Shown piece after piece: positions 11,857-31,469 of a stretch of DNA of 64,000 nucleotides. Every line of letters begins with the position of its first letter. Position 1 is the stretch's first letter. Source of the DNA: a virus (lineage: Duplodnaviria > Heunggongvirae > Uroviricota > Caudoviricetes); IMG/VR virus record IMGVR_UViG_3300004481_001615. One strand, 5' to 3'. The notes beneath the pieces are model-generated. The model ran no database searches and was not told where the DNA came from. It saw nothing but the letters and a program-made list of their open reading frames with translations. Made by a program: the position numbers and the translations under genes.

Positions 11857-12468
11857 CTAACCTACCACCACGGGTGGGTTTGTCTGAGACTCGTTATTTG
11901 CTTGATAGTTGGGTTTTTGAGACATTCCATTCATACCAGCCACAATACTAGCTGGGAACATCTGGATAGCAGTGTTGTATGATTGAACTGACTCGATGTA
12001 TCGCATACGTGCTACGGCAACACGATTATTCGTTCCTGCTAGTTCATCCATCAATCCAAGTACAATTGTGTCACCATTGAGTTCTGGGTAGTTTTCTGTT
12101 GTGACAATTACGAGGAGACGACCCACAATATTGTCAAGTGCTCCCTGAGCTTCCATCTGTTCTGTCACTGGTTGAGAGAGAGACTTACCCCACTGTGAAC
12201 GTGCCTCTGCTATTGAGGTGAGGAGATTTGTTTCATAGTTGATATAGATTTTTGTGGCATTGACCAGACTTGGAATCAGGTCATATCGACGCTGGTACTG
12301 ATTCTGAACCTCAGACCACTTGGCCTCAACATCCACTTTCTTGGTTATGAGACCATTATAAGTCCCAAAATACCAACCAGCACCAATACCTGCTGTGATT
12401 ATTATACCTACCATGAAACCAATTAGGATTATTTTACCATCCATTTTAGATGCCCTTCTTATTACCAT
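11857..12468 (-). CDS. lemA: LemA family protein
   Basis: N-terminal TM helix and WSEVQNQYQRRYDLIPSLV, which resembles the LemA signature. Paired with a TPM gene, as is typical. Confidence 0.6.
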   Translation of the reverse strand: MVIRRASKMDGKIILIGFMVGIIITAGIGAGWYFGTYNGLITKKVDVEAKWSEVQNQYQRRYDLIPSLVNATKIYINYETNLLTSIAEARSQWGKSLSQPVTEQMEAQGALDNIVGRLLVIVTTENYPELNGDTIVLGLMDELAGTNNRVAVARMRYIESVQSYNTAIQMFPASIVAGMNGMSQKPNYQANNESQTNPPVVVG

Positions 12469-13159
12469 GAGCTATGACTTGCAAACGTGCCGAGAGATTG
12501 AAACCATACTTGACACAATCTTTCCATATTGATGGTAGGAGAGTTATACATCTTTCTGATGTTGTGCATTCTGGCATAAGCCAAACACGGTCTGGTCGTA
12601 TGCCATTGTTTTGGCAGAACACGATAACCTCTTTTGTGTCCTCATCAGTAGCGACAACAAACTTCCAATTAATGTTATACCTGTAATTGTAGTTGTTTAT
12701 CATCATATTGGAATAAAGGAACCAATCTGGGTGAACAGTAGTATCACGAACGACGACATCTTCTTTAGATTGAGAGTTTGAGAGTTTTGGCGAAATGTTG
12801 ATTTCCCAGTGCTTCAATATATCGGGCACCCATTTAAGACCCAATAATGAAATTGTACCGTTTGTTTCCATGGCATACCTAGTTCCACTTGCAGAACCCA
12901 GCATAAAATCCCAGATTTCGCCCTTTTGTAGTAGTGGTTCTCCACCCGTGAAGACAATCATATCACCTGTCTTAAATCCGAGCGAAGAAAGTTTATCTTT
13001 TAGTTCCTGCATGGTATAGTCCGTTCCACCTGACCAGCTGTACTTTGTATCACACCACTTACAAGCTAGGTTACAACCAGCTAATCGAACAAAATAGGCG
13101 ACACGGCCCGTCGATGGACCCTCACCTTGGATTGATTTAAAAACCTCAACTACTTTCAT
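12446..13159 (-). CDS. queE: 7-carboxy-7-deazaguanine synthase (radical SAM)
   Basis: FVRLAGCNLACKWCDTKYSW matches the QueE CxxxCxxCD cluster-binding motif. Confidence 0.7.
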   Translation of the reverse strand: MKVVEVFKSIQGEGPSTGRVAYFVRLAGCNLACKWCDTKYSWSGGTDYTMQELKDKLSSLGFKTGDMIVFTGGEPLLQKGEIWDFMLGSASGTRYAMETNGTISLLGLKWVPDILKHWEINISPKLSNSQSKEDVVVRDTTVHPDWFLYSNMMINNYNYRYNINWKFVVATDEDTKEVIVFCQNNGIRPDRVWLMPECTTSERCITLLPSIWKDCVKYGFNLSARLQVIAHGNKKGI

Positions 13160-13572
13160 ATACTCACTCCCTGATTGTCTCCCTCATAGATTGTAAAGTG
13201 AACACATTCTTCATCTAAATCAAATTTTGTCGCTAGCTCTCTTTTTATGGTCATAGCAATCTCTTCCACACTTGTGTTTTCTATAGATTTGATATCAAGT
13301 ACACATTCATTAGCGACTAAAATTTTGGCCTTTTGCCAGATATGTTCGTGCCTAGTTGGCACTAGAAGTATGTGGTCCCAATTCTCTTTGAAATAGGCTT
13401 TTATCTCGCCTAGGTCGATACAATAACCTGTCTCTTTATCCATAGTCTCATTTGTTATGTCTATTTTTAGTTTTTTAATGAAATATGTATGCCCATGAAG
13501 TCTCCCACACTTGGGATGGCTGGGGATGTAATGAGACAGGTCAATTGTTATTTTATTAAGCTTGAGGAGCAT
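13156..13572 (-). CDS. queD: 6-carboxy-5,6,7,8-tetrahydropterin synthase
   Basis: 138 aa with CGRLHGHTY, the QueD/PTPS CxxxHGH motif. Overlaps queE by 4 nt. Confidence 0.65.
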   Translation of the reverse strand: MLLKLNKITIDLSHYIPSHPKCGRLHGHTYFIKKLKIDITNETMDKETGYCIDLGEIKAYFKENWDHILLVPTRHEHIWQKAKILVANECVLDIKSIENTSVEEIAMTIKRELATKFDLDEECVHFTIYEGDNQGVSI

Positions 13573-13870
13573 TTACAACCAACTCTCCATCTACTAACCG
13601 ATTATATGAGTCTGAGATTGAATCGGACAGACCCACATGGAAATCTTTGGCCGAGAACCCACACTTGGAACATTTGAATGAGTAGAAGTTCTGTTTTGAC
13701 TGTTCCTTACCCTGACCAATGAGCCTAAATCGTTTTTGACCATGAAGGGTAGGATAATGACATGTCGGGCAGAGAAACGGTCCCTTTGTCATGTCTTTGA
13801 TTTGTTTCCGCTTATTGCGGGTTATCGAATCTCGAACGAGGTCGAGAGAAGTCTTATTACGTTTCACCAT
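13556..13870 (-). CDS. zinc-ribbon protein (104 aa)
   Basis: CPTCHYP...CSKCGF. First gene downstream of the promoter at 13893. Confidence 0.4.
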   Translation of the reverse strand: MVKRNKTSLDLVRDSITRNKRKQIKDMTKGPFLCPTCHYPTLHGQKRFRLIGQGKEQSKQNFYSFKCSKCGFSAKDFHVGLSDSISDSYNRLVDGELVVNAPQA

Positions 13871-13892
13871 AGATTAAAAGAGAACAATCATA

Positions 13893-13908
13893 TTTATAAA
13901 TGTTATGA
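13893..13908 (-). promoter_or_regulatory. promoter motif copy (TTTATAAATGTTATGA)
   Basis: 23 nt upstream of the ATG at 13870. No further motif copy until 7210, which implies a roughly 6.6-kb operon. Confidence 0.6.
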
Positions 13909-14136
13909 TTTCTTTTTAATATACTTTTTCCCATGACCCCATACATGATAACGGATACCGTGGGGTGACATATAAGACATTACCTCTAAAATTTTCCACT
14001 CTCTTCGATGGTCATATTTCCAACCCTTTGCATCACTCTCTCTCGAAGAGTCGTACAGAAGGGTATACATAAGGTCTGGGAAGTCAAAGAGCTTCGCTCG
14101 TCTTCCATTCCTGATTGATATACCTTTCCTCCCCAT
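13903..14136 (-). CDS. hypothetical protein (77 aa)
   Basis: Track ORF. Confidence 0.35.
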   Translation of the reverse strand: MGRKGISIRNGRRAKLFDFPDLMYTLLYDSSRESDAKGWKYDHRREWKILEVMSYMSPHGIRYHVWGHGKKYIKKKS

Positions 14137-14337
14137 CTACTTCGAACGCCTCTTATATTCTCGGGATGTATCTCTTAACTTTTTATTGAGCTCTTTTACT
14201 CGTTTCTTGTCATTATCTATACGAAACTGCAGTGTTTCTATCTCTTCCAGATACTGCCCAATAAAATATTTTAAGTCACGTACTGTTGTATATGAAAGTG
14301 GATTAAACTTTTTCACTGCCACTCCTTTTTTAACCAT
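14137..14337 (-). CDS. hypothetical coiled-coil protein (66 aa)
   Basis: Track ORF. Promoter motif 26 nt upstream. Confidence 0.4.
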   Translation of the reverse strand: MVKKGVAVKKFNPLSYTTVRDLKYFIGQYLEEIETLQFRIDNDKKRVKELNKKLRDTSREYKRRSK

Positions 14338-14361
14338 GATAGAATAATATGTCTTTAAATA

Positions 14362-14378
14362 TTTAAATGTTATGAGAA
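14362..14378 (-). promoter_or_regulatory. promoter motif copy (TTTAAATGTTATGAGAA)
   Basis: Motif family member. Confidence 0.6.
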
Positions 14379-14421
14379 AAAATCGTCTTCAACTCTCAAT
14401 AGAAGAAGCTACAACCATATT

Positions 14422-14712
14422 TTAGGTCAACACCACGAGCACCCCTCGTTCTAACAGTTTCACAGAGGAATCTACAATAAAAAATTCACGCACAAACCCA
14501 TCATAGGTACTATTTTCTTTTAAGTATTCACGTACATGTTCCTTTGCATCTACCATACTATATGCAATCACATAGAAAATGTATTTTTTATCGCCGAATC
14601 CTCTGTTGTACATTAGTTTGTAAAGATGATGTTCCTTTCCTCCTTCACCAATTAATTTTATTTCGCTCACATTACTCACCTCCATATGGTTCTGTGAGTT
14701 TGTTAAATGCAT
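14422..14712 (-). CDS. hypothetical protein (96 aa)
   Basis: Track ORF. Confidence 0.4.
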   Translation of the reverse strand: MHLTNSQNHMEVSNVSEIKLIGEGGKEHHLYKLMYNRGFGDKKYIFYVIAYSMVDAKEHVREYLKENSTYDGFVREFFIVDSSVKLLERGVLVVLT

Positions 14713-14947
14713 CGAGTAATTTATCTAAAGTCCCAGTTGTAATGTAGACCCATGTTGCTTCACCCTCTGGAACGCCCTTTGTCTTTAACCATCTAAGAGA
14801 GTGTATTTCTCTACTGTTTTTCACTATGCGGATTTTTTGCCCTTTTAACCACGTTCTAACAGCTACTCCCTCATGAACAATGGTAAAATATCCCATCCCA
14901 AACTCTGTCCTCATTTTAACTGCGTTTGTTGGTTGTTTTTTGCTCAC
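14672..14947 (-). CDS. hypothetical protein (91 aa)
   Basis: Track ORF. Confidence 0.4.
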   Translation of the reverse strand: MSKKQPTNAVKMRTEFGMGYFTIVHEGVAVRTWLKGQKIRIVKNSREIHSLRWLKTKGVPEGEATWVYITTGTLDKLLDAFNKLTEPYGGE

Positions 14948-15147
14948 TTTTTATTCACTCTTTTAACTCTATTTTTGGTATGAAAATCTAATAAAGCATT
15001 ACTTATTTTATTTTTAATCATTTCCTTATCACTCTCATTTCCAGTTATAAAATAGGATTTAAATTCAGATTCAAGTTCTAAAAATAATCCTTCGGCAAAT
15101 GGACTAGCTAACTCTAATTGTCTATTAATATATTTTTCAAAGCTCAT
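14944..15147 (-). CDS. hypothetical protein (67 aa)
   Basis: Track ORF with a 4-nt overlap to its neighbour. Confidence 0.4.
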   Translation of the reverse strand: MSFEKYINRQLELASPFAEGLFLELESEFKSYFITGNESDKEMIKNKISNALLDFHTKNRVKRVNKK

Positions 15148-15509
15148 TTTTCATTTACCTTCAACCACTCAATTCTTGGTAACCAAGTCTTGATAAATTC
15201 TGGGACATCATTATTCATATGCTTAATTGTTATCCAATCCATTATGTCTTTTAAAAGCTTCAAATCTACAGCCTTCCCATACTGGCACTTTCTACAATTT
15301 CTTATTACTGGCACATTGAGTTCCCTGCAAAAACCCTGTATAGCTACTCTTGCGCTGTGGCTTTCAGTCATAATGTGACCACATTCTAAAATATACCAGT
15401 AGGTTCTTGGATTGCCCTGCTGGGTTAGGTCCCAAGTTGATGGGATAATGGTGATTACTTTACTTTTAACTAATTTTGGTTGTGATTTAAAATTACTCAT
15501 TCTCGCCAC
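15144..15509 (-). CDS. hypothetical Cys-rich protein (121 aa)
   Basis: CGHIM...C...CRKCQYGK. Confidence 0.4.
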   Translation of the reverse strand: MARMSNFKSQPKLVKSKVITIIPSTWDLTQQGNPRTYWYILECGHIMTESHSARVAIQGFCRELNVPVIRNCRKCQYGKAVDLKLLKDIMDWITIKHMNNDVPEFIKTWLPRIEWLKVNEK

Positions 15510-15712
15510 ATCTCCGTGTACTTTCCTAATTTTATGGTGTTTTGTATCAATTCAGTAGCCTCCTTTGGGGTGTACCAATGGTCATCAATCAGGTGTAATT
15601 CTACTTCAGCTATTGCTTTTTCTACATCTGGATTGTTATCAATATCATACTTCTTGCCATGCCAATGACATACTTTACCTAACGGACACGTAATCCAAAA
15701 CATCATTGTCAT
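15497..15712 (-). CDS. hypothetical protein (about 72 aa, start revised)
   Basis: The track ORF extends into the upstream gene in another frame. The internal MTMMFW start carries an AGGAGGG Shine-Dalgarno and overlaps the upstream stop as ATGA. Confidence 0.4.
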   Translation of the reverse strand: MTMMFWITCPLGKVCHWHGKKYDIDNNPDVEKAIAEVELHLIDDHWYTPKEATELIQNTIKLGKYTEMWRE

Positions 15713-16218
15713 TGCTCTTCCCTCCTGATGGCTTTGATTATATAGGTTCGACCACCAACTCTCCGACCATTGTTGGTGTACCCACCATATGTTACTTGAT
15801 AAGATGGAACATGACCTCGCCATACGCACTGTTCTGCATCCTGACGGTTCTCCCAGACTAGACCACAGACACACTTCCACATGTTCTTGATTACCTCGAC
15901 TTCGTGATAGCCGTCACCAATAGCACGGGGTTCCATTCTATAAACTGTCGCCTTCTCCATTCTCTTGACTTTTGGCGTCTTGAAAACTCCCTTTTCCCAG
16001 TCCCTGACTTCGTCCTCTGTTGTTTCACATTCATCTGAGAGGTCGGGTATTGTGACTACTGTCTTTGATAAATCGGTGCTCCCACAAACTGGGCACGAGA
16101 ACTCTTTTCTGTATAACATTCTATCAATCATTTCGATTGATTGAGGTGACGCTCCATAAGTATGGAAGTGACCGCACTGCCCACACACAACCCTCTGTAA
16201 TTCTATATCCATTACCAT
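15709..16218 (-). CDS. double zinc-ribbon protein
   Basis: CGQCGH...CPVCGS and CVCG...C. Start revised to ATG 16218 (MVMDIELQ), which sits about 30 nt downstream of the TATA. Confidence 0.45.
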   Translation of the reverse strand: MVMDIELQRVVCGQCGHFHTYGASPQSIEMIDRMLYRKEFSCPVCGSTDLSKTVVTIPDLSDECETTEDEVRDWEKGVFKTPKVKRMEKATVYRMEPRAIGDGYHEVEVIKNMWKCVCGLVWENRQDAEQCVWRGHVPSYQVTYGGYTNNGRRVGGRTYIIKAIRREEQ

Positions 16219-16247
16219 TCTACCTGATAGTATAATGGTCAATGACA

Positions 16248-16263
16248 TTTATAAATGTTATGG
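16248..16263 (-). promoter_or_regulatory. promoter motif variant (TTTATAAATGTTATGG) with downstream ACCTGATA element
   Basis: The TATA is 19 bp from the conserved tacctgata element at 16221-16229. Confidence 0.55.
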
Positions 16264-16421
16264 TTAGAGATTTATCTATAAATTCTCAGATTCTCAAATC
16301 GTCAAATCTCAACGGAGGAGATTTTTTTTTTTTTAAACTTATCCTAAAATAAACAGAGGGCTCTAGGTCACGAAGCAAACCAAACATAAATTCAATCTCA
16401 ATATTTATGCTTTTTATACTG

Positions 16422-16437
16422 TATATAAATGTTATGG
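16422..16437 (-). promoter_or_regulatory. promoter motif variant (TATATAAATGTTATGG) facing an ORF-free 160-bp region
   Basis: Motif family member with no ORF of 60 aa or more downstream before the next motif. Confidence 0.45.
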
Positions 16438-16716: not shown

Positions 16717-17069
16717 GGTCTTTCACCCAACTTTTCTTTGATGAGTGTTTTTATATCTTCTAGCAACTGGTCCCTATCACCGGAGAACCTGAGTCTGTTC
16801 TCATCGGGGATGTGAGCAAACTCTGATTCTTTTTTGATTATCATATCTTCGATGTCGTTTATTATCTTCCAGAGTTTTTCGGAAACGTTCGGGTAGAACG
16901 TAGAGTAGAACCTTCTCCACTCCTCATCGGTGTGGTGCGTATTGAACCAGTGCCACATCTCTTTGTCGGAAATGAAGTTATAATGACTCCACTTCGCATA
17001 TCCTCGCATAGCCTCTGTCTCGGCACGGTCTGCTCTGATTCTTTTATCTGAGATAATTACTTCACTCAT
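16713..17069 (-). CDS. hypothetical protein (118 aa)
   Basis: Track ORF with a 4-nt overlap to folE. Confidence 0.4.
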   Translation of the reverse strand: MSEVIISDKRIRADRAETEAMRGYAKWSHYNFISDKEMWHWFNTHHTDEEWRRFYSTFYPNVSEKLWKIINDIEDMIIKKESEFAHIPDENRLRFSGDRDQLLEDIKTLIKEKLGERP

Positions 17070-17695
17070 TTACTATCCGCCACCTTATAGAACTCATCAC
17101 GGAGAGCTGAGTCTGTTCGGAAGGCTCCGAGGAGTGCTGTGTTTGTTGCACCCTCACCATTCTTCACTCCTCTCATACGCATGCACATATGGAGACCCCT
17201 CACTTTGACAGCCACGTGGTCTGTGCATAGAGTCTTTGATAGAAGCTCGGCGAGTTGTGGTGTAAACTCTTCTTGGACGATTGGTTGACGAGCAAATATG
17301 TCGGTAATCCTTATTAACTTTGAGAGACCAACTATCTTACCTTGTGGGATGTACCCAAGTGAGACCCTGTACTCCACTGGAAGGAAGTGATGTGGGCAGA
17401 TTGAAAAGACTGTAAATGGTTCGAGTGCAAGTAAGGCGTCTCTGTTGTGAGGGAAGATAGCTTGTGCATGTTCCTCACATATTTCTATAATTTCGGGTTG
17501 TGGCACAGTGAATCCTAACAACCACTCTGCCATCCGTTTAGGGGTTTCTTTAAAGTTTGGGTCTTTTAAATCAATTCCCAACTCTATAAGGAGACTTGTG
17601 ACATGTTTAGTCACAAGAGAAGAACTTCTATTTGATTTGAATTCCTTTTTTGAACTCATACCATCACCTAACATAAACTTTTCAAGGTTATCCAA
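17066..17695 (-). CDS. folE: GTP cyclohydrolase I
   Basis: SICPHHFLPVEYRVSLGYIPQGKIVGLSKLIRI closely matches the FolE active-site block CEHHLVPF...GYIP...GLSKL. Confidence 0.7.
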   Translation of the reverse strand: MDNLEKFMLGDGMSSKKEFKSNRSSSLVTKHVTSLLIELGIDLKDPNFKETPKRMAEWLLGFTVPQPEIIEICEEHAQAIFPHNRDALLALEPFTVFSICPHHFLPVEYRVSLGYIPQGKIVGLSKLIRITDIFARQPIVQEEFTPQLAELLSKTLCTDHVAVKVRGLHMCMRMRGVKNGEGATNTALLGAFRTDSALRDEFYKVADSK

Positions 17696-18041
17696 CTATA
17701 TCACCATACTTTCCTTTAACTCCGTCGCCTTCACCGACGACGACTGATATATCATTATCGTATTTTATCTTGAGTTTGGTATATAAGTCTTTAGCATACA
17801 TCTCACATGACCATGCAGAATCAATTTTCTTGTAGTCCTCGAGATGTGATGCTACTAGTTCACGGAGGTCGTGGAACTCCACTTGCCTGTCGAGGTCACC
17901 AACCGACATTCTCACTGTCACATCAAAGATATGTTGATGAGGATATCTGAGGTACTGCCTATTTTTTGGCGCATCTCGCCAATGATGGGTTCCTAAGAAT
18001 GGAACCGTAACTTCAATATATGAGGTTATCATTTTAAACAA
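17688..18041 (-). CDS. second PTPS-family (QueD-like) protein
   Basis: 117 aa with His-rich GTHHW...YPHQHIF, compatible with the PTPS Zn triad. Overlaps folE and the GT gene. Confidence 0.4.
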   Translation of the reverse strand: MFKMITSYIEVTVPFLGTHHWRDAPKNRQYLRYPHQHIFDVTVRMSVGDLDRQVEFHDLRELVASHLEDYKKIDSAWSCEMYAKDLYTKLKIKYDNDISVVVGEGDGVKGKYGDIVG

Positions 18042-19173
18042 CTCCCACGATTGAGAGCATTTTTCCGATTACTCTCGTCTTATCGTACCGCTCAGCAAAC
18101 TTATAACAGTTATCTGGATAGAGAGCGTACCTAAATATCTTTTTAGATGCTCCACCCGTTCCGTCTCCAACAGGTGAAAAGAAATATGTTGAGTAGTCTG
18201 CACCATCACCACTTAATGTATCCACGTACGCTAGTCTTTTTGGAACAACTGGAGTACAACCGAGTGCACATGCCTCTAAGACTCCGTAACCAAACGTTTC
18301 TTGTCGGGCAGTTGAGAGTACAACGGTAGATTGTGATAGGATATCATAATATTCTGGTTTTGATAGTCCATATTTTAGTAGTATTCTATCTCTATATGTT
18401 GAATAGAATTCACTGAACCGACGTGCTAGTTCTGGGTCACGGATTTTGGGTATCGACCCAGATGTTATTACTAATTTGATGTAGTGAGCACTTGCTCTGT
18501 TAAAGACATTCGACATAATATTTATCATGTCAACAACACCCTTTTCTGGTGCCAGTCTATGAGGGAACACAACCCATGGGAGCTTACCGAGTGGCGACTT
18601 CCATCTACGGATTTCTTCGAGGTCGAGGGGCAGACCGGTCACGTGGATATTACCATTCTGACGGTCCCAAAATGTTTTACTAAAGAGTACTTTACTCCAC
18701 TCTGAACCAACAAAAATAGCGTCGGCACTGTTACCTATCATCTGTTCGAAGTGTGATGCCCACGGGCGACAACCCGCTTGTGCTAGGAAGTCCCACGGGT
18801 CATAAGAACCAGCGTGCATTACACCACAAATTTTGAATTTAGCATTACTGAGACTTCGGATATAGAAGAGAGACTCAATACCGGGATGCCATAGGTCAGC
18901 GAAGAAGATTGTATCTTCGTCGGTTATCTCACCAACTTTTATTGCTTTTATGAGAGTTTGGATTTGAGATTGAGCAAAGTACGGTCGGGAATGGATGTCG
19001 AGGAATTCACCAGACTCAATCTTTGTTGTGAGTGGTGTGCCATCAACCTGCACGAAATCTACACCGAGGCTGTTGAATACTTGTGGGAAGAAACGGGCCC
19101 AGTCAGCGGTATATCGTTCCTCTAGTGGTTCAAGCGGTACCCAAATTAACATTTTCGTTCTCCTTTTTCTCAT
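18034..19173 (-). CDS. GT-B fold glycosyltransferase (GT4-like)
   Basis: C-terminal ETFGYGVLEACALGCTPVV is an EX7E-type motif. In an operon with folE and the PTPS-like gene. Confidence 0.55.
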   Translation of the reverse strand: MRKRRTKMLIWVPLEPLEERYTADWARFFPQVFNSLGVDFVQVDGTPLTTKIESGEFLDIHSRPYFAQSQIQTLIKAIKVGEITDEDTIFFADLWHPGIESLFYIRSLSNAKFKICGVMHAGSYDPWDFLAQAGCRPWASHFEQMIGNSADAIFVGSEWSKVLFSKTFWDRQNGNIHVTGLPLDLEEIRRWKSPLGKLPWVVFPHRLAPEKGVVDMINIMSNVFNRASAHYIKLVITSGSIPKIRDPELARRFSEFYSTYRDRILLKYGLSKPEYYDILSQSTVVLSTARQETFGYGVLEACALGCTPVVPKRLAYVDTLSGDGADYSTYFFSPVGDGTGGASKKIFRYALYPDNCYKFAERYDKTRVIGKMLSIVGVV

Positions 19174-19855
19174 AAACTGAAAATCGCTTCAACCAAGGTT
19201 CCTGTTCTGGGAGTTTGGGTGTATTACCATCAATATCTGTATTAAAGATTCTCTGATACTTTTGTGTACTCTTCTCCTCTATATGTGGGCTTTGGTCATA
19301 TTCTTCCCATATTTTCATTATCTTCTTTCTCAGGGACACACAACGTGCTTCTGTAAGCACATTCTTCATCATATCTTCATTTACTACTCTTGTCTCTTTT
19401 ATGTTGATTAATTCATCTTTTATCATTTCTCGGAAGAAATAACAAACAACACTCGCAAACTGTGTATAACTTGTATCATCCAAATGTGGTCCATATGTCG
19501 GAAACGGGCGAATATAGGTATCTAGTCTATCCCACTTCATACGCCATAAATCATCATACTTATGCGTGTGCTCTAGCGCTCTTAGAATAAAATTAACAGC
19601 ATCCTCGATACCACGGTCATAGTCACTCCTCTTACTTTCAATTGCTCCTTTCTCAAGCTCAGCACGCTTGTCTATCACATCAGCTTGTTGCTGTTGTAGT
19701 TCTAACATCTCTTTTTGATGTACAGCACGCATATTTTCTACTTCTTTACTCAGTTCTAAAATATAAGTAAGCTGTCCTTTTTCTATTATTTCCATTATCT
19801 TTGATACAATGAGAGCTTCCCCGTGCTCATCTACGAGTTTCTCTAATACTGACAA
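19130..19855 (-). CDS. hypothetical coiled-coil protein (241 aa)
   Basis: Track ORF. Promoter motif 38 nt upstream. Confidence 0.4.
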   Translation of the reverse strand: MSVLEKLVDEHGEALIVSKIMEIIEKGQLTYILELSKEVENMRAVHQKEMLELQQQQADVIDKRAELEKGAIESKRSDYDRGIEDAVNFILRALEHTHKYDDLWRMKWDRLDTYIRPFPTYGPHLDDTSYTQFASVVCYFFREMIKDELINIKETRVVNEDMMKNVLTEARCVSLRKKIMKIWEEYDQSPHIEEKSTQKYQRIFNTDIDGNTPKLPEQEPWLKRFSVYEKKENENVNLGTA

Positions 19856-19892
19856 TTCAATATATCTCCTAATTAAAGATTAGATGATTACA

Positions 19893-19908
19893 TTTATAAA
19901 TGTTATTA
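19893..19908 (-). promoter_or_regulatory. promoter motif variant (TTTATAAATGTTATTA)
   Basis: Motif family member. Confidence 0.5.
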
Positions 19909-20436
19909 TTCAAATAGATAATTGAGAGTATTGTCTTCTAGTTTCTTTTTAATCCCCTTCCTCTCAAGAAGATGTTTATATCTGTACTCACTGATACCTA
20001 ACATAGGTAGAGCAACCACAACATCTCCTATCTTAGTTATATTATTCATATATGGAAGTATGTCAAGAAGGAAGCGCTCTTTTATTTCCTTATGTAACCA
20101 ACCCTTCCTCCCCACTCTACCATGTGATGTACATGTCCACCTCCAAATATCCTTACTTGCTACAACACTATTACTCTTCTGAATATTTCCTTTCTCTATC
20201 TGACGTGAAACTGTCCCACCATACCATCTATGATACATTTCTACTATATTTCTCTCCTGACAAGCAACAACTATAATAACAGAACTTGAGGACGCGGAGA
20301 CACATCCCTCACCATCAAAAAAACCAGCAAGATATGATTTTTCTAACTCACTTGGTTGTTCTCCGGTCATCCCAGCCAATTCATCATCATTCTCCAGTGA
20401 AGTAGGGCTGGGGAACGGTACCGACATTCTTGGCAC
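19906..20436 (-). CDS. LAGLIDADG homing endonuclease
   Basis: LAGFFDGEGCVS dodecapeptide motif. 176 aa. Confidence 0.55.
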   Translation of the reverse strand: MPRMSVPFPSPTSLENDDELAGMTGEQPSELEKSYLAGFFDGEGCVSASSSSVIIVVACQERNIVEMYHRWYGGTVSRQIEKGNIQKSNSVVASKDIWRWTCTSHGRVGRKGWLHKEIKERFLLDILPYMNNITKIGDVVVALPMLGISEYRYKHLLERKGIKKKLEDNTLNYLFE

Positions 20437-21269
20437 CTATCAAAGAGAACATTCTCTAAGTGACTGCTACGCATTGCTTCTGCGTGGACATCCTGCCACA
20501 CTTCTCTAAGTGGTTTCTGCCAGAGGTTACCGTAGGTGAACGAGACTGTTTTGTCTTTGAAGGGATGGGTATCGTAGAAGAAGCAACAGGGAACAACATC
20601 TCCATTCCACAGGACCGAAACAGATAACCACGGATTTAAGCATGGTCGGTGGGTTTTGAGTTGTGCTGACTCATCACGGGCTCCAACAAAACATTCCTCG
20701 ACTGTACGGACAAGAGAGTTCGGGCGGTCTTTATACCGGTTAAAGACATTCTCGATTTCGTCCTTGTTCTCAGGGAGAACAACACACTGTATGTCCACAA
20801 ACGGACGGTGCTCGAGTTTGAGAAAGGCATCTACATCAGATTGGATGTTCACGAAGATGTTTGGGTCGCTGGGTCTGCGGATTTTATTATACGTCTCTTC
20901 TGTATACGCGTCCATTGAGATTGTCAAGAAGTCTAGTTTTTGGAGTGTTTGAAAGTGCCTTGCCATATTTACGGCATTTGTACTCATACCAACTTTTACA
21001 CCAGCACTGTGGAGTTTATCAATGATGACAGGAAGTTGCGGGTGAAGGGTAGGTTCACCATACCCTTGGAGTTCGACCATATAGGAGGAGTCAAAGTCTC
21101 TTCGGTTGGTCATGAGGTCGATTAAGTTTGGATTGAGGTAGCCCAGTTTGCGTTTCATCCACTCCCTGCCACACATCCAACAGTTAAGCTGGCAGTGGTT
21201 GGTTGTCTCGATTTGATAAACTTCTGGGAGAATGTCGAAGTCAAAGTCTTTGATTCGTATGTTCTTCAT
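20367..21269 (-). CDS. radical SAM enzyme with a C-terminal Cys-rich (SPASM/twitch-like) region
   Basis: HCQLNCWMCG (CxxxCxxC), plus VPCCFFYD...CQEC near the C-terminus. Confidence 0.6.
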   Translation of the reverse strand: MKNIRIKDFDFDILPEVYQIETTNHCQLNCWMCGREWMKRKLGYLNPNLIDLMTNRRDFDSSYMVELQGYGEPTLHPQLPVIIDKLHSAGVKVGMSTNAVNMARHFQTLQKLDFLTISMDAYTEETYNKIRRPSDPNIFVNIQSDVDAFLKLEHRPFVDIQCVVLPENKDEIENVFNRYKDRPNSLVRTVEECFVGARDESAQLKTHRPCLNPWLSVSVLWNGDVVPCCFFYDTHPFKDKTVSFTYGNLWQKPLREVWQDVHAEAMRSSHLENVLFDRCQECRYRSPALLHWRMMMNWLG

Positions 21270-21292
21270 TAATAGAAAGAGAGGAGAGTCTA

Positions 21293-21308
21293 TTTATAAA
21301 TGTTATTA
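21293..21308 (-). promoter_or_regulatory. promoter motif variant (TTTATAAATGTTATTA)
   Basis: 24 nt upstream of the ATG at 21269. Confidence 0.55.
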
Positions 21309-21506
21309 TTCCTGTATATTTGACTTTACAGGAACAGACTGCCATATCCAGTATGAGTACCCACAAATTGCGCAGGTTATTTCATCCTCAAAATCTATGC
21401 CACCACATTCTGGGCATTTTTGATACTGTTCAATTCCATCTATTATGTAGATAAATCGTTTAGCACCACCAGCACCAGATTCTGTTCTGATTGGTTTGGT
21501 ACTCAA
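21306..21506 (-). CDS. zinc-ribbon protein (66 aa)
   Basis: CPECGG...CAICGY. Confidence 0.4.
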   Translation of the reverse strand: MSTKPIRTESGAGGAKRFIYIIDGIEQYQKCPECGGIDFEDEITCAICGYSYWIWQSVPVKSNIQE

Positions 21507-21509
21507 TTA

Positions 21510-21794
21510 CTAATCCCCATACTCATATTCCATGTAGAACTTGTTCGTTCTGCCAGCTAATTTTTTGATGTCTCCTTTGAGGTGAAAACCCTTACCAAAA
21601 CTATTTTTGATGACAGCGAGGACACCATAAACATTTTCTGTTAGGTCCTTTGGGTCCCACTCTACTCTCATCTTATCAGGATTGATAGTTATTCCACCGA
21701 TTACGGTTTTACCATTGATTGTTCTTTTCTTTATCTTTCTCATATCAACAGTCATTTTTATCACTCTTTGACGTAAACACCGTTCCGTAACCAT
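21510..21794 (-). CDS. hypothetical protein (94 aa)
   Basis: Track ORF. Confidence 0.4.
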   Translation of the reverse strand: MVTERCLRQRVIKMTVDMRKIKKRTINGKTVIGGITINPDKMRVEWDPKDLTENVYGVLAVIKNSFGKGFHLKGDIKKLAGRTNKFYMEYEYGD

Positions 21795-21982
21795 GATATT
21801 TCGATTAGTAGGGGATACTCAAACATACTGAGCCCAGTATATTGACCATTACTTGCTTCTACTCTGGCCGTTGTTCCGTCACTGAACTCTAGGTATAGGT
21901 AGGGTGTGTCATCGAAATCTTTTTCAAAATCACCAAACCACGCGTTGGTTATGGTCTTACCACGTAGACTATCTATCGGCAT
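21761..21982 (-). CDS. hypothetical protein (73 aa)
   Basis: Track ORF. Promoter motif 32 nt upstream. Confidence 0.4.
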   Translation of the reverse strand: MPIDSLRGKTITNAWFGDFEKDFDDTPYLYLEFSDGTTARVEASNGQYTGLSMFEYPLLIEISWLRNGVYVKE

Positions 21983-22013
21983 TTGTTATCAATAAGTAAA
22001 AGAGATTATGTCA

Positions 22014-22029
22014 TTTATAAATGTTATGA
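22014..22029 (-). promoter_or_regulatory. promoter motif copy (TTTATAAATGTTATGA)
   Basis: Motif family member. Confidence 0.6.
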
Positions 22030-22043
22030 TATCATAAACCCAT

Positions 22044-22295
22044 TTATTTTCTAATATAGATAGGATAAACTACTTTATCTCCTTTAAAACTTGGACGAAT
22101 TACAGCAGGTTTACCTTCCTTTCGGTACTTTCTTACTTTCTCCTCTGCTGTGGTCATTTTTTCATGTGTTGAAACTAATATAAAGACTCGCCCTCTGATT
22201 TTTATACTCTTATTTACTCTTCTATTTATTTTGGGTCCCCGACCCGTTCTAGGAATAGTTGACAATCCCTTAAAATATCCATCATATCCTTGCAT
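22044..22295 (-). CDS. hypothetical basic protein (83 aa)
   Basis: Track ORF. Confidence 0.4.
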   Translation of the reverse strand: MQGYDGYFKGLSTIPRTGRGPKINRRVNKSIKIRGRVFILVSTHEKMTTAEEKVRKYRKEGKPAVIRPSFKGDKVVYPIYIRK

Positions 22296-22577
22296 TTAAA
22301 CTATTCCTTTTTTGATTTTTATACTTATTGATGGGTAAGTACCGAACGCCACCACGCCCGGTGAGCCATAGACACGAAGAACATTGTCTTTTCCACACAC
22401 ATCAATAGCAACCTTTTTTGCTTTACTCACTAATGTTTTACTGGGTCCCATACCTGTCCCGCCCGTAATGTAAACAGAATCTAATGTTTTTGCTGTACGG
22501 AAAATCCTGACATCTGTAAAAGTTTTCCTCAGAGTAGATAATAATTTCTTTCCTACTTCTGTTACCATATTCATCAC
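22296..22577 (-). CDS. hypothetical protein (93 aa)
   Basis: Track ORF. Confidence 0.4.
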   Translation of the reverse strand: MMNMVTEVGKKLLSTLRKTFTDVRIFRTAKTLDSVYITGGTGMGPSKTLVSKAKKVAIDVCGKDNVLRVYGSPGVVAFGTYPSISIKIKKGIV

Positions 22578-22588
22578 ATCCTTACATA

Positions 22589-22921
22589 CTAACGAGTACT
22601 TCCATTATTCTTTAATAAGTCATAGTGCTCGAAAGAGGGATATTCATTCTCAAAACCAGACATATTAAATTTACCATGTTTCTTCGTATACCTTTCGACC
22701 TCTACTCTTATTTTTTTAGCAACCTTATTTAAATCACTAATACATCCTGATTTTGTGGGCCACCACTCGTCCTCTGCCCATGGTGTTGCATTTACTCTAC
22801 CGATTAAGACCGCCCCTGCTGTGTACCGACCATCCTCATCGGCTCCTTCACGTGTTCTTACCCAAACCTTTGGGAAAACTAATGTTTTTGTCGTTTTCTT
22901 TTTTACCATATTCTTTATCAA
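22589..22921 (-). CDS. hypothetical protein (110 aa)
   Basis: Track ORF. Promoter motif 26 nt upstream. Confidence 0.4.
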   Translation of the reverse strand: MIKNMVKKKTTKTLVFPKVWVRTREGADEDGRYTAGAVLIGRVNATPWAEDEWWPTKSGCISDLNKVAKKIRVEVERYTKKHGKFNMSGFENEYPSFEHYDLLKNNGSTR

Positions 22922-22946
22922 TATAAAATCTATTCTCTCATTGATA

Positions 22947-22963
22947 TTTAAATGTTATGAGAA
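22947..22963 (-). promoter_or_regulatory. promoter motif copy (TTTAAATGTTATGAGAA)
   Basis: Motif family member. Confidence 0.6.
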
Positions 22964-23017
22964 AATAATCTGGGAAGGGTAAACGGACCAATTAAACCAT
23001 GCATAAAGGAGTGCCCG

Positions 23018-23278
23018 TTACACCTTCTTTCCAGAGTAGTGGAACGCTGATACCCACATTGCTAGTGGTGGTAGGTTTGCTATTGCACTTATAGGGTCGT
23101 TTATCATGAAAAAACCGTAGGTGAATAGTGTGCAAGCTATGATGTATGCTAGGCACGTTGTTTTGCTGAAGCTCGTTGTCTGCGTTTTTAGAATGGTAAT
23201 GGCTTGTGGGATACAAAGCAGAGCAATGAGCCATGTGCCTATATTGAAGCTGAGATTGATTAAATCCAGAGTAGTCAC
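23018..23278 (-). CDS. small membrane protein (86 aa)
   Basis: Two or three hydrophobic helices. Start overlaps the stop of 23275..24549 as ATGA. Preferred over the overlapping 22992..23336 frame. Confidence 0.4.
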   Translation of the reverse strand: MTTLDLINLSFNIGTWLIALLCIPQAITILKTQTTSFSKTTCLAYIIACTLFTYGFFMINDPISAIANLPPLAMWVSAFHYSGKKV

Positions 23279-24549
23279 CCAAACAACACATTGTCCATTC
23301 TACCGTACTTTCCGAAACTATATTCTTTGTTGGCATGCTCGAAGTCGTTTTCTTCTACACATCTGAGATACTCGACCATTTGTGCCGTATGTGGGTCAGA
23401 TGTTGCTTTGACAAAGTCGATGTAATCGTCTGGAGAATCAGCGAGAGCATCTAAGCAGTGATAGTATTCTAGCACTTTGTAGAGGTTATGGAGGGCTATC
23501 AACCCGCCTGGTAATGAACCTTCTTTATTGAATTCTTGTGGGGTCGAGATTTGACAGACTGGACAACTACATGGGAGTTTTGATAGGGTAGATTCGTAAG
23601 ATTCACCGAACGCGATTCCTCGAGTGATATTGTAGGGTAGATAATACTTGCGATAACGAGCACCTGTTATTGAAAAAGAGGCAGAGTCAAATGTGAGGTG
23701 ATTGAAGAAACGTTTGGCATAGATGATTATTGGAGCTGTATTTAAACCAGTGGCTAAAAACATATGGACACGTTCTTTCTCGAGCGTCTGAGCATATCCG
23801 AGTACTAATGCAATAGAATCTGGGTCATTTTGGTTTGCACCAAATGCATGACCATCAAATTGTAGGTCTTTCATAGCGTCGGTAAATTTTTCTAGTTCTT
23901 CGAGAGTATAACCATGGATTACCTTTAGTAGTTGGAGTTTATCGGATTGACGACTTCGGTGCATTATCTCGTAGTTTCGTCTGGATATCTTGATTGATTC
24001 GTCAAAGGATTTCTCTGTTGAACGTGTTCCGAACCCACCTGTTCCGAGTTCACCATTTTTAACGGGTGGAGAATCGAGAGTTAATGCTATATCGGCGTTG
24101 TGTTCCTCCCATTTTAGAATGTCAGCGGGATTAGGTTTGACTCCCTGAGACCATACTTGGAAACCACCTGAGTCTGAGACAAATGTGAAGTCCTTTCGTG
24201 GGATGCGATAAAATTCACGGAAGTCGAACTTGTCCATACCATAGAACGCGGAAACCAGTAGAGCATCATATCGGAAGATAGCTGTTTCTGTCCACCAATC
24301 GAGACTGTACCCCTCTGGAGCTTGGATTCCTTCAAATCGGGTAACTGAACCAGGAGCAGGTGTAAACTGTACACGTCTATTTGGATTTATGTTATTGAGT
24401 GCCCAACCAGGCACATATTGAACATTGTTGCGCAGAGAGTGACCTGCTGATGATAAGCCCGACGGAAGTGCAGGAATGTATTTTAAATCGGGTTTCATAC
24501 CGACCTGACTGCCACCTGTTGTTGCCGGAGTATATCTAACATCTCCCAT
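23275..24549 (-). CDS. tRNA-guanine transglycosylase family protein, DpdA-like (candidate 7-deazaguanine DNA transglycosylase)
   Basis: TGT zinc site CSCPVC-x22-H near the C-terminus. About 424 aa. Start revised to the internal ATG at 24549, which is 34 nt downstream of the TATA. Confidence 0.6.
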   Translation of the reverse strand: MGDVRYTPATTGGSQVGMKPDLKYIPALPSGLSSAGHSLRNNVQYVPGWALNNINPNRRVQFTPAPGSVTRFEGIQAPEGYSLDWWTETAIFRYDALLVSAFYGMDKFDFREFYRIPRKDFTFVSDSGGFQVWSQGVKPNPADILKWEEHNADIALTLDSPPVKNGELGTGGFGTRSTEKSFDESIKISRRNYEIMHRSRQSDKLQLLKVIHGYTLEELEKFTDAMKDLQFDGHAFGANQNDPDSIALVLGYAQTLEKERVHMFLATGLNTAPIIIYAKRFFNHLTFDSASFSITGARYRKYYLPYNITRGIAFGESYESTLSKLPCSCPVCQISTPQEFNKEGSLPGGLIALHNLYKVLEYYHCLDALADSPDDYIDFVKATSDPHTAQMVEYLRCVEENDFEHANKEYSFGKYGRMDNVLFG

Positions 24550-28913: not shown

Positions 28914-28942
28914 TCTAAGTCAGAGGATAGATATAATGATAA

Positions 28943-28958: not shown

Positions 28959-28977
28959 TCCAATATCTAACATCAAT

Positions 28978-29271: not shown

Positions 29272-29272
29272 G

Positions 29273-30226: not shown

Positions 30227-30232
30227 CTAAAC

Positions 30233-31467: not shown

Positions 31468-31469
31468 AA

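What the first reader, a model, noticed from the sequence alone, without database searches (positions are those of the whole stretch)
12446..24549. 7-deazaguanine (preQ0-type) nucleoside pathway plus a TGT/DpdA-like transglycosylase: candidate genomic DNA modification with accessory enzymes
The window encodes FolE (17066..17695), QueD (13156..13572), QueE (12446..13159) and a TGT-family protein (23275..24549). The TGT-family protein has the CxCxxC...H zinc site and a DpdA-like size of about 424 aa and no PUA domain. In phages and archaeal viruses this combination installs preQ0-derived 7-deazaguanines (dPreQ0, dADG, dG+) into the virus's own DNA as anti-restriction protection.

No QueC (no SGGxDS PP-loop protein) is present in the window. 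Either host QueC supplies the intermediate or a non-canonical amidotransferase does. The cluster also carries a second PTPS-like protein, a GT4 glycosyltransferase and a radical-SAM/SPASM enzyme (20367..21269) that are not part of described Dpd systems. That raises the possibility of a further-decorated deazapurine.
Basis: partly seen in the sequence, partly recalled or inferred. Interest (0 to 1): 0.85.

Follow-up and report, generated by a model that had tools for sequence, protein, structure and literature searches.

The report
QueC-less 7-deazaguanine DNA module with glycosyltransferase
A probable archaeal virus carries genes to replace guanine in its DNA with a 7-deazaguanine made without the usual nitrile step, and the sugar-transferring and radical enzymes next to them recur in hundreds of uncultured viruses, which suggests an undescribed, probably sugar-bearing, DNA base.

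Summary
No QueC is present.

The "preQ0-type" reading is not supported. The "second PTPS-like" ORF (17688-18032) belongs to the DpdL family, the proposed CDG decarboxylase of phage phiST, whose DNA carries 2'-deoxy-7-deazaguanine. That explains the missing QueC.

The transglycosylase belongs to a rare clade (32 sequences in 5.8 billion). It is distinct from DpdA3 and DpdA4, only weakly similar to a DpdA2-like protein, and far below the ArcTGT cut-off.

The accessory enzymes are conserved module parts. In 80 IMG/VR loci holding this GT family, 73 have DpdL, 63 FolE, 57 QueE, 30 the same rSAM-SPASM and none QueC, all on the GT's strand. Cultured phages ACP17 and PA5oct carry the GT-DpdL pair. 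No paper I could search describes this link.

Best reading: a DpdL-type 7-deazaguanine DNA modification in an archaeal tailed virus, probably decorated further by GT plus rSAM. The final chemistry is unknown. This is a new variant of a known kind.

The parts
23275..24549 (-). TGT-superfamily transglycosylase, DpdA-like. 424 aa, with a disordered N-terminal ~80 aa followed by a TIM barrel and Zn subdomain. Proposed guanine-to-7-deazaguanine exchanger on viral DNA.
20367..21269 (-). Small (300 aa) radical SAM enzyme with an abridged SPASM/twitch auxiliary-cluster domain. Proposed tailoring enzyme that works with the GT.
   Evidence: Radical_SAM plus SPASM; invariant C26/C30/C33 plus C210, C228, C229, C279, C282; best solved relatives are BtrN (9e-5) and BlsE (5e-3); no NCBIfam family reaches its cut-off; it lies next to the GT in other viruses.
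19906..20436 (-). LAGLIDADG-type homing endonuclease ORF inserted between the rSAM and GT genes. It is a mobile insertion and probably not a working part of the pathway.
   Evidence: LAGLIDADG_3 4e-5; PHROG HNH/endonuclease 6e-9. It is absent from the compact operon of relative L005.
19130..19855 (-). 241-aa ORF of unknown function inside the module. It is not conserved with the module elsewhere.
   Evidence: No Pfam, PHROG or NCBIfam hit. No homologue near the GT in 80 IMG/VR loci.
18034..19152 (-). GT4-family (GT-B, retaining-type, EX7E motif) glycosyltransferase. It is a conserved partner of DpdL and DpdA-like genes.
   Evidence: Homologous to ACP17 gp124 (1e-39) and PA5oct gp167 (6e-46).
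17688..18032 (-). DpdL-family T-fold protein, a QueD paralogue and the proposed 7-carboxy-7-deazaguanine decarboxylase. Its ATG lies 1 nt after the GT stop codon.
   Evidence: Motif YLRYPHQHIF (LxxxH[R>Q]HxF) in place of QueD's CxxxHGH. DpdL profile 1.2e-28. BLASTP to ACP17 DpdL 3e-10. Gene junction shown. 1,463 cluster representatives are related.
17066..17695 (-). GTP cyclohydrolase I (FolE), the first step from GTP.
   Evidence: Pfam 8e-44, PHROG 6.5e-44, NCBIfam folE 1e-42.
13156..13572 (-). QueD (6-carboxytetrahydropterin synthase) with the CxxxHGH motif.
12446..13159 (-). QueE (7-carboxy-7-deazaguanine synthase, radical SAM).
35108..36331 (-). Archaeal-type S-adenosylmethionine synthetase. 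It may supply SAM for the radical-SAM enzymes (inference only) and points to an archaeal host.
   Evidence: Pfam PF01941 at 2e-130.

Best explanation
The window comes from a tailed virus, most likely of an archaeon, that carries a QueC-less, DpdL-type 7-deazaguanine DNA-modification module.

Proposed steps:
1. FolE, QueD and QueE convert GTP to 7-carboxy-7-deazaguanine (CDG). The enzyme identities are shown by homology; the chemistry follows from the established queuosine/archaeosine pathway.
2. The DpdL-family QueD paralogue removes the carboxyl group to give 7-deazaguanine. This is inferred from family membership; the activity has been proposed but never shown.
3. The PUA-less TGT-superfamily enzyme exchanges guanine in viral DNA for this base (inferred).
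4. A GT4 glycosyltransferase, translationally packed against DpdL and FolE, and a small twitch/SPASM radical-SAM enzyme are integral, conserved parts of such modules. They most likely add a sugar to the deazaguanine, either on the free base or in DNA, and then tailor that sugar (inferred, lowest confidence).

The final base would be dDG or a glycosylated dDG-type derivative, not dPreQ0, dADG or dG+. The likely role is protection from restriction and other DNA-targeting defences.
For: - Gene identities.
- Intact TGT catalytic and Zn residues, and a TGT fold.
- DpdL membership: motif; profile scores of phiST DpdL 4.5e-33, ACP17 DpdL 7e-32 and window 1.2e-28, with QueDs at 1e-7 or worse.
- The published precedent for FolE/QueD/QueE + DpdL + DpdA without QueC giving dDG: PMC10516641.
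- No QueC in the window, and none in 80 of 80 GT-bearing loci.
- Closest relative L005 (58% identical TGT) has the compact operon TGT-rSAM/SPASM-75aa-GT-DpdL-FolE-QueD-46aa-QueE. IMG/VR locus L092 has rSAM/SPASM-GT-TGT(window type)-QueD-FolE plus DpdL and QueE.
- Of 80 IMG/VR loci with this GT family, 73 have DpdL, 63 FolE, 57 QueE and 30 the same rSAM-SPASM. All lie on the GT's strand, and the rSAM's median distance from the GT is 0 nt.
- All three GT contexts and both rSAM contexts sampled from the protein database showed the same linkage.
- In cultured phages, 17 of 19 records with a DpdL-like hit also carry the GT. In ACP17 and PA5oct it sits between the DpdA/TGT-like gene and DpdL.
- PA5oct DNA resists G-site restriction enzymes (PMC12191111).
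- Archaeal virus: the PolB hits only haloarchaeal tailed viruses, and there is an archaeal-type SAM synthetase and an RFC-type clamp loader.
Against: - No chemistry is available for this virus or for any GT-carrying relative.
- DpdL's decarboxylase activity has never been demonstrated, and phiST/ACP17 DpdL+DpdA gave no dDG in E. coli.
- Plain 7-deazaguanine has no obvious O-acceptor for a sugar, so the GT's acceptor is unknown.
- phiST makes dDG without any GT, so the GT is not needed for dDG itself.
- One relative (L012) combines the same GT family with QueC and no DpdL, so the GT is not strictly tied to the decarboxylated base.
- Only 64 of 94.8 kb were visible, so QueC could lie elsewhere, and an archaeal host probably has QueC.
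- The DNA (rather than tRNA or protein) target of the TGT-like enzyme is inferred from context only.
Confidence: 0.6

Rival explanations
1. This is a preQ0-type system: viral FolE/QueD/QueE boost CDG, host QueC makes preQ0, and the DpdA-like enzyme installs dPreQ0, or a dADG- or dG+-like derivative, in viral DNA.
For: More distant members of the same TGT clade do sit next to QueC (L009, L011, L012). Archaeal hosts normally possess QueC for archaeosine (established knowledge). 30 kb of the contig was not seen.
Against: A DpdL-family gene sits between the GT and FolE. No QueC or PP-loop gene is in the window. No QueC occurs in 80 GT/DpdL-type loci. The closest relatives (L005) also lack QueC in a complete operon.
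Confidence: 0.12
2. This is a plain phiST-like dDG system. DpdL and the transglycosylase give 2'-deoxy-7-deazaguanine as the end product. The GT4 and rSAM-SPASM act on something else, such as another DNA base, a protein or a host glycan, and merely travel with the module.
For: dDG was proven in phiST, which has DpdL and no GT. 7-deazaguanine lacks a hydroxyl acceptor. The window has a separate large glycan gene cluster, showing that the virus manipulates sugars for other purposes.
Against: The linkage is extremely tight and widespread. The GT lies on the same strand and within about 1 kb of DpdL and DpdA-like genes in unrelated virus lineages, and 1 nt from DpdL here. The rSAM occurs only beside the GT. 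No hydroxymethylase was found among the window ORFs scanned, so there is no obvious alternative acceptor. Reconstitution of dDG from DpdL+DpdA alone failed for ACP17, which carries the GT.
Confidence: 0.2
3. The target is not DNA. The module either makes a free 7-deazapurine glycoside or nucleoside (huimycin-, tubercidin- or blasticidin-like small molecule), or it modifies tRNA or a protein (as Cap10 does), for host takeover or inter-virus conflict.
Against: A base-exchanging TGT-like or DpdA-like gene accompanies the GT in 78 of 80 loci. The genes sit among replication genes. Every virus with such pathways tested so far has modified DNA (PMC10516641). PA5oct DNA carries a modified G. There are no tRNA genes in the window.
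Confidence: 0.08

Closest known systems
[quoted passage not shown] 2023, NAR, PMC10516641)
   Same: FolE + QueD + QueE + DpdL-family QueD paralogue + a TGT-superfamily transglycosylase, with no QueC. The window ORF scores in the same DpdL profile as phiST and ACP17 DpdL. ACP17 also has the homologous GT between its DpdA and DpdL.
   Different: The transglycosylase is a different clade: there is no detectable similarity to phiST DpdA3 and only weak similarity to the ACP17 DpdA2-like protein. DpdL has HQH instead of HRH. The GT4 was not discussed in that paper. The rSAM-SPASM is absent from all 50,697 cultured phage records. The host is probably archaeal.
DpdA DNA-guanine transglycosylases (bacterial DpdA, PDB 7ui4; viral DpdA1-4)
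   Same: TGT TIM-barrel fold, catalytic Asp residues and Zn site, no PUA domain, and linkage to deazaguanine synthesis genes in a virus.
   Different: Sequence relatives are limited to 32 metagenomic proteins plus distant jumbo-phage TGT-like proteins (GR7B, PA5oct gp168). It is not DpdA4: PF20314 is not hit and no halovirus is hit. It has an extra ~80-aa disordered N-terminus with a conserved motif.
Archaeosine tRNA-guanine transglycosylase (ArcTGT, PDB 1iq8)
   Same: Best sequence-profile match among solved structures (2e-10) and among NCBIfam models. It shares the FDSAS nucleophile motif and CSCPVC zinc motif.
Pseudomonas jumbo phage PA5oct gp168-gp167-gp166 ... gp162 cluster
   Same: TGT-like (hhalign 97.9% to the window family), homologous GT (6e-46), DpdL-like and QueE in one block. 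Its DNA shows modified G by restriction analysis.
   Different: It is a bacterial jumbo phage. It has no rSAM-SPASM, and its TGT-like protein is 540 aa. The chemistry is also unknown.
Sugar-decorating enzymes of deazapurines and DNA bases: HuiG (huimycin), BlsD/BlsE (blasticidin S), T4 alpha/beta-glucosyltransferases, glycosyl-queuosine in tRNA
   Same: HuiG is a GT4-family enzyme that glycosylates a free 7-deazaguanine derivative. The GT followed by a small radical-SAM enzyme resembles base-glycoside formation followed by BlsE-type tailoring. T4 GTs are GT-B enzymes that glycosylate a modified DNA base (my knowledge).
   Different: No specific sequence or structural affinity to any of these was found. 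The Foldseek top hits are generic GT4 enzymes (GlgM, MshA, BshA, glycogen synthase). No DUF3524/QTMAN-type N-domain was detected. The acceptor is unknown.

Membership tests
DpdA (DNA 7-deazaguanine transglycosylase) family | TGT-type TIM-barrel fold with catalytic aspartates (the DSGGFQ-region Asp and the nucleophile Asp) | tested here: met
DpdA (DNA 7-deazaguanine transglycosylase) family | Zn-binding CxCxxC...H subdomain | tested here: met
   C327-S-C329-P-V-C332 ... H354 are invariant.
DpdA (DNA 7-deazaguanine transglycosylase) family | Sequence membership in a named subfamily (bDpdA, DpdA1, DpdA2, DpdA3, DpdA4) | tested here: not met
   No PHROG hit. tblastn finds no 9g/CAjan-type, phiST-type or halovirus DpdA. 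hhalign to phiST DpdA3 gives probability 0.4%. PF20314 (DpdA4) is not hit. Similarity to the ACP17 DpdA2-like protein is weak (82%, 1e-5). A full phylogeny was not done.
DpdA (DNA 7-deazaguanine transglycosylase) family | Encoded next to 7-deazaguanine base-synthesis genes in a virus or defence island | tested here: met
   Window genes. All six relatives with enough flanking sequence show FolE/QueD/QueE/QueC-type neighbours.
DpdA (DNA 7-deazaguanine transglycosylase) family | Exchanges guanine in DNA for a 7-deazaguanine base | not testable with these tools
   This needs an enzymatic assay or LC-MS/MS of DNA.
Archaeosine tRNA-guanine transglycosylase (ArcTGT/TgtA) | Reaches the equivalog score and carries the C-terminal C1/C2/PUA tRNA-binding domains | tested here: not met
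   TIGR00432 scores 44.8 bits against a cut-off of 350. The match covers only the catalytic domain, residues 94-319 of 1iq8. No PUA Pfam hit. Length is 424 aa.
DpdL (proposed CDG decarboxylase, QueD paralogue) | T-fold QueD-like protein of ~115 aa in which QueD's CxxxHGH is replaced by LxxxHRHxF | tested here: met
   The sequence is YLRYPHQHIF, i.e. LxxxHQHxF, with R replaced by Q in the window and in L005. The rest of the family pattern (GxH, DRxxEF, SCE) is present.
DpdL (proposed CDG decarboxylase, QueD paralogue) | Profile-level homology to phiST CGPG_00067 and ACP17 gp125, and separation from true QueD | tested here: met
   An HMM of 73 viral members scores phiST at 4.5e-33, ACP17 at 7e-32 and the window at 1.2e-28. 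The best QueD scores 8e-7 and the window QueD is not hit. BLASTP to ACP17 gives 3e-10.
DpdL (proposed CDG decarboxylase, QueD paralogue) | Occurs with FolE, QueD, QueE and a DpdA but without QueC | tested here: met
   for the window. for 73 of 80 related loci, with QueC in none.
DpdL (proposed CDG decarboxylase, QueD paralogue) | Decarboxylates CDG to 7-deazaguanine | not testable with these tools
   The activity has never been shown experimentally, even for phiST and ACP17.
GT4 retaining glycosyltransferases (GT-B fold) | Two Rossmann-like domains, a C-terminal Glycos_transf_1 domain with the EX7E motif, and a phosphate-binding R/K | tested here: met
   AF2 pLDDT 91.6. Foldseek hits GlgM, MshA, BshA and glycogen synthase at 1e-14. 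E285...E293 and R199/K204 are invariant. Pfam Glycos_transf_1 is found in 31 of 31 members, GT4-conflict in 13 and Glyco_transf_4 in 11.
SPASM/twitch radical SAM enzymes | CX3CX2C radical-SAM cluster plus a C-terminal Cys-rich auxiliary-cluster domain | tested here: met
   C26/C30/C33 plus five invariant C-terminal Cys. Pfam SPASM 5e-12. No curated NCBIfam family reaches its cut-off; the best is 97.9 bits against 380. The specific function is therefore unassigned.
Bacterial Dpd restriction-modification system (dpdA-K) | DpdA together with DpdB/DpdC and the DpdD-K restriction genes | tested here: not met
   The Pfam and NCBIfam scans name no ORF of the module as a Dpd partner gene. The context is viral replication genes. 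DpdB/C were not searched with dedicated models.

The most novel reading that the evidence does not exclude
The GT4 and the twitch/SPASM radical-SAM enzyme build a sugar-bearing, radical-tailored 7-deazaguanine in viral genomic DNA. This would be a glycosylated purine-type DNA base, the DNA counterpart of glycosyl-queuosine. It would be widespread in uncultured viruses of bacteria and archaea and present in the cultured phages PA5oct and ACP17. It would also explain why dDG could not be reconstituted from DpdL+DpdA alone.
Probability: 0.35. Interest if true: 0.9.

Novelty: new variant of a known kind. Interest (0 to 1): 0.68.

Why it matters
7-Deazaguanine DNA modifications are a major anti-restriction strategy of phages, and eight derivatives are known so far.

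This locus, and the hundreds of related loci found here, show that the QueC-less DpdL branch usually comes with a dedicated GT4 glycosyltransferase. In about 40% of cases it also comes with a dedicated small radical-SAM enzyme. Neither appears in the published pathway schemes I could read.

If these enzymes act on the base, there is an undescribed class of DNA hypermodification. That would bear on restriction and CRISPR evasion, modification-dependent defences, nanopore basecalling of viromes, and enzymatic tools.

It also extends deazaguanine DNA modification in archaeal viruses beyond the DpdA4/preQ1 type, using an ArcTGT-like transglycosylase clade.

The question can be tested directly, because PA5oct and ACP17 are cultured and carry the GT-DpdL pair.

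Tried and rejected
- Megablast of the 13-kb region against cultured phages gave no match.
- The exact-protein look-up for the window's TGT product found nothing on record.
- Pairwise BLASTP of the window ORFs against phiST DpdL and DpdA3 was uninformative. A family profile was needed.
- hhalign against single sequences is weak, so assignment relative to DpdA1-4 rests on negative or weak results and not on a phylogeny.
- Host identification failed through the SAM synthetase in GTDB genomes and through the TGT family in GTDB genomes and IMG/VR: there were pattern matches but no confirmed relatives.
- A link between the GT and the tRNA queuosine mannosyltransferase type (DUF3524 N-domain) was not found.
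- Similarity of the GT to BH4 glucosyltransferase (5zer, rank 30) is no better than to generic GT4 enzymes, so a pterin-glycoside reading was not pursued.
- The ~300-aa DSGAF-motif TIM-barrel protein that abuts the GT in 76 of 80 loci could only be tentatively linked to TGT (hhalign 27-41%). It is called 'DpdA-like' with reserve.
- The afdb50 fold library was unavailable.
- Supplementary tables of Cui et al. 2023, and Iyer et al. 2013 (NAR), were not held. Prior mention of the GT link there cannot be excluded.
- The sulfatase next to the rSAM-SPASM in L016 (an anSME-like pairing) occurs once only and has no counterpart in the window.

Full report
**Observation**

All ORFs from position 1 to about 28.9 kb lie on the minus strand.
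- QueE, 12446-13159: Radical_SAM/Fer4_12, PHROG 'QueE-like' 2e-46, NCBIfam QueE models down to 6e-27.
- QueD, 13156-13572: PTPS 4e-14, with the QueD signature CGRLHGH.
- FolE, 17066-17695: 8e-44.
- A radical-SAM/SPASM protein, 20367-21269.
- A Glycos_transf_1 protein, 18034-19173.
- A TGT-like protein, 23275-24549/24582.

The 424-aa form of the TGT-like protein is identical to a protein called on a 94,771-bp JGI contig, so the window shows about two thirds of that contig. No SGGxDS PP-loop exists in any frame. QueC and PP-loop queries taken from related viruses find nothing among the window's ORFs.

The region has no near-identical DNA in 50,697 cultured phage records.

**The transglycosylase**

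Pfam TGT scores only 23.5 bits, below the gathering threshold, and no PHROG matches.

The protein has only 32 relatives in 5.8 billion clustered proteins. A profile of 28 of them hits ArcTGT 1iq8 at 2e-10 and bacterial TGTs at about 1e-3.

The family keeps the following residues invariant:
- D126-S-G-G
- D159 (LDxPP)
- D288 (FDSxS, the ArcTGT-type nucleophile motif)
- C327xC329xxC332...H354

The AF2 model (core pLDDT above 85; residues 1-79 disordered) matches the TGT superfamily.
- Foldseek hits 1iq8, 6rkt, 2ash and the DNA preQ0 insertase DpdA 7ui4.

It is not a canonical ArcTGT. TIGR00432 scores 44.8 bits against a cut-off of 350, only the catalytic domain aligns, and there is no PUA domain.

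It is not recognisably DpdA3 or DpdA4 (no PF20314 hit and no halovirus hit). Its detectable viral relatives are:
- the TGT-like protein of Vibrio phage GR7B (hhalign 99.7%)
- PA5oct gp168 (97.9%)
- more weakly, the DpdA2-like gp123 of ACP17 (82%)

Pattern scans found no confirmed member in 185,579 GTDB species genomes or in IMG/VR. Two more distant IMG/VR relatives surfaced later (L055, L092).

**Why QueC is missing**

Cui et al. [quoted passage not shown] Its dG is fully replaced by 2'-deoxy-7-deazaguanine (dDG). They proposed a QueD paralogue, DpdL, as the CDG decarboxylase. In DpdL the QueD motif CxxxHGH is replaced by LxxxHRHxF.

The 114-117-aa ORF at 17688-18032/18041 reads YLRYPHQHIF.
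- It aligns with phiST DpdL, ACP17 gp125 and PA5oct gp166 through all family motifs.
- tblastn finds ACP17, PA5oct-like, BCSR5, X1, BUDD and Phosso.
- BLASTP to ACP17 DpdL gives 3e-10.
- In an HMM built from 73 viral members it scores 1.2e-28, next to phiST DpdL (4.5e-33) and ACP17 (7e-32). True QueDs score 1e-7 or worse.

The family is large: 1,463 cluster representatives at E<=1e-3. The 'second PTPS-like protein' is therefore a DpdL. The pathway most likely branches at CDG and does not run on to preQ0.

**The accessory enzymes belong to the module**

The GT is homologous to ACP17 gp124 (1e-39) and PA5oct gp167 (6e-46). In both phages that gene lies between the DpdA/TGT-like gene and DpdL. 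Among cultured phages, 17 of 19 records with a DpdL-like hit also have the GT. phiST has none.

The GT family has more than 555 members. All three sampled contexts (L014, L015, L016) lie beside FolE, PTPS, QueE and a DpdL-like ORF.

An IMG/VR scan gave 160 relatives, of which 80 loci were kept. In these 80 loci I found:

| Gene | Loci (of 80) |
|---|---|
| DpdL-like | 73 |
| FolE | 63 |
| QueE | 57 |
| QueD | 47 |
| ~300-aa DSGAF-motif TIM-barrel protein (tentatively TGT-like) | 76 |
| Window-type TGT | 2 (neither has the DSGAF-motif protein) |
| The same rSAM-SPASM family | 30 |
| QueC | 0 |

Every one of these genes is on the GT's strand. The DpdA-like and rSAM genes have a median distance of 0 nt from the GT.

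The rSAM-SPASM family has 52 members. Both sampled contexts (L017, L018) are again beside the GT and deazaguanine genes. It is absent from all cultured phage records at 1e-8.

In the closest relative of the window's TGT (L005, 58% identity) the whole set forms one compact operon: TGT-rSAM/SPASM-75aa-GT-DpdL-FolE-QueD-46aa-QueE. In the window the same order is loosened by a LAGLIDADG homing endonuclease, a 241-aa orphan and about 3.5 kb of small ORFs. The GT stop and the DpdL ATG are 1 nt apart.

More distant members of the TGT clade carry other variants.
- TGT-QueC-two extra radical SAMs-FolE-QueD-QueE (L009; L011 is similar).
- TGT-methyltransferase-QueT-PP-loop (L007).
- TGT-rSAM-QueC...GT-GCYH-IB-PTPS-rSAM-QueE (L012).

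This clade is therefore a transglycosylase serving a rapidly diversifying deazaguanine toolkit.

**What the accessory enzymes look like**

The GT model (pLDDT 91.6) is a GT-B/GT4 retaining-type enzyme. Its closest structures are GlgM, MshA, BshA and glycogen synthase. It has an invariant EX7E motif (E285...E293) and R199/K204. Its N-terminal domain is family-specific and rich in invariant acidic and aromatic residues.

Pfam GT4-conflict and Glyco_transf_4 are hit in part of the family.

The rSAM has CX3CX2C plus five invariant C-terminal cysteines, an abridged SPASM/twitch domain. No curated family claims it. Its nearest solved relatives are BtrN and, weakly, the cytosylglucuronate decarboxylase BlsE, both of which act on sugar-like substrates.

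Precedents exist for GT4-type glycosylation of a free 7-deazaguanine (HuiG in huimycin) and for CDG-based, QueC-less deazapurine pathways (tubercidin).

From this I infer, without proof, that the GT adds a sugar to the deazaguanine and the rSAM tailors it. Arguments against:
- dDG has no hydroxyl acceptor.
- phiST makes dDG without a GT.
- L012 pairs the GT with QueC and not DpdL.

**Host and setting**

- The PolB (8073-10397) hits only 52 haloarchaeal tailed-virus records.
- The window also encodes an archaeal-type SAM synthetase (2e-130), RFC-type clamp-loader subunits, an XPD-like helicase and a family-4-type UDG.
- A relative uses GCYH-IB and a DUF2116 fusion.

An archaeal tailed virus is the most likely source. 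GC content is about 40% and there are no tRNA genes.

**What is known and what is new**

7-Deazaguanine DNA modification by viral DpdA enzymes is well established. The QueC-less DpdL branch was described in 2023. PA5oct was predicted to have a deazaguanine system (PMC7824862) and has restriction-resistant G sites, but its chemistry is unidentified.

I found no paper in the searchable library that connects a GT4 or a SPASM radical-SAM enzyme with these modules. The supplements of Cui et al. and Iyer et al. 2013 could not be read.

[quoted passage not shown] For ACP17, the GT between those two genes is an obvious candidate.

**Verdict**

I rate it a new variant of a known kind, with interest 0.68. 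The decisive experiment is nucleoside LC-MS/MS on PA5oct or ACP17 DNA.

Noticed in passing
window 41999-57375 (-): A sugar/glycan gene cluster of about 15 kb. It holds three GT2 glycosyltransferases, two methyltransferases, a cytidylyltransferase-like protein, a CDP-alcohol phosphatidyltransferase, an NAD-dependent epimerase/dehydratase, two further radical-SAM enzymes (47720-49078, 51763-52746), a transaldolase/F6P aldolase, a dual-specificity phosphatase, a SIS-domain isomerase and a GHMP kinase. It resembles an NDP-heptose-type route plus transferases. It might supply the donor for the GT4 or remodel the host surface or lipids.
   Followed up: partly
window 35108-36331 (-): A full-length archaeal-type S-adenosylmethionine synthetase (PF01941, 2e-130). 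It has no homologue in 50,697 cultured phage records. It may feed the four radical-SAM enzymes and the methyltransferases in the window.
   Followed up: partly
window 19906-20436 (-): A LAGLIDADG-type homing endonuclease ORF wedged between the rSAM-SPASM and GT genes. It overlaps the rSAM 3' end by 70 nt and is absent from the compact operon of relative L005.
   Followed up: partly
window 10804-12468 (-): A LemA-family protein (3.5e-44) followed by a TPM-domain protein with a Gly/Ser/Arg-rich tail, placed between QueE and the PolB gene. The purpose of this membrane-associated pair in a virus is unknown.
   Followed up: no
window 8073-10397 (-) and 28936-34606 (+): Replication genes of archaeal flavour. 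The PolB hits only haloarchaeal tailed viruses. There are also two RFC/AAA+ clamp-loader-like proteins, a PD-(D/E)XK nuclease and a DUF3987 primase/helicase-like protein on the opposite strand after a strand switch near 28.9 kb.
   Followed up: partly
window 38955-41955 (-): A UDG-superfamily protein (8e-36), a YspA/SLOG-family protein and an SPFH/Band-7 protein in a row. A viral UDG beside a base-modification system may be worth a look.
   Followed up: no
L019-L098 (IMG/VR), e.g. L028:10995-11915: A ~300-aa protein with DSGAFS, LD.IPFP and ADSTTW motifs abuts the GT in 76 of 80 loci. It has no Pfam hit and no detectable similarity to phiST DpdA3 or the ACP17 DpdA. It aligns weakly with the window's TGT family over the catalytic motifs but shows no CxCxxC zinc motif in the five sequences inspected. 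The window-type TGT replaces it in L055 and L092. It may be an unnamed DpdA-like clade.
   Followed up: partly
L016:5088-9026; L014:5825-6271; L017:13730-15072: Module variants. L016 has FolE-sulfatase-DpdL-rSAM/SPASM-GT, an anSME-like pairing. L014, L021, L056 and L017 have a phosphoribosyltransferase (plus an OMP decarboxylase in L017) beside the module, which hints at nucleotide-level handling of the base in some viruses.
   Followed up: no
L009:12540-14506; L011:4087-7749: QueC-containing relatives of the window's virus carry one or two additional ~310-345-aa radical-SAM enzymes and unknown ORFs between QueC and FolE. These suggest further uncharacterised preQ0-derived modifications in the same viral lineage.
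   Followed up: no
window 58202-63392 (-): Two very large ORFs (790 and 960 aa) with no Pfam match. They may be structural or host-recognition proteins.
   Followed up: no
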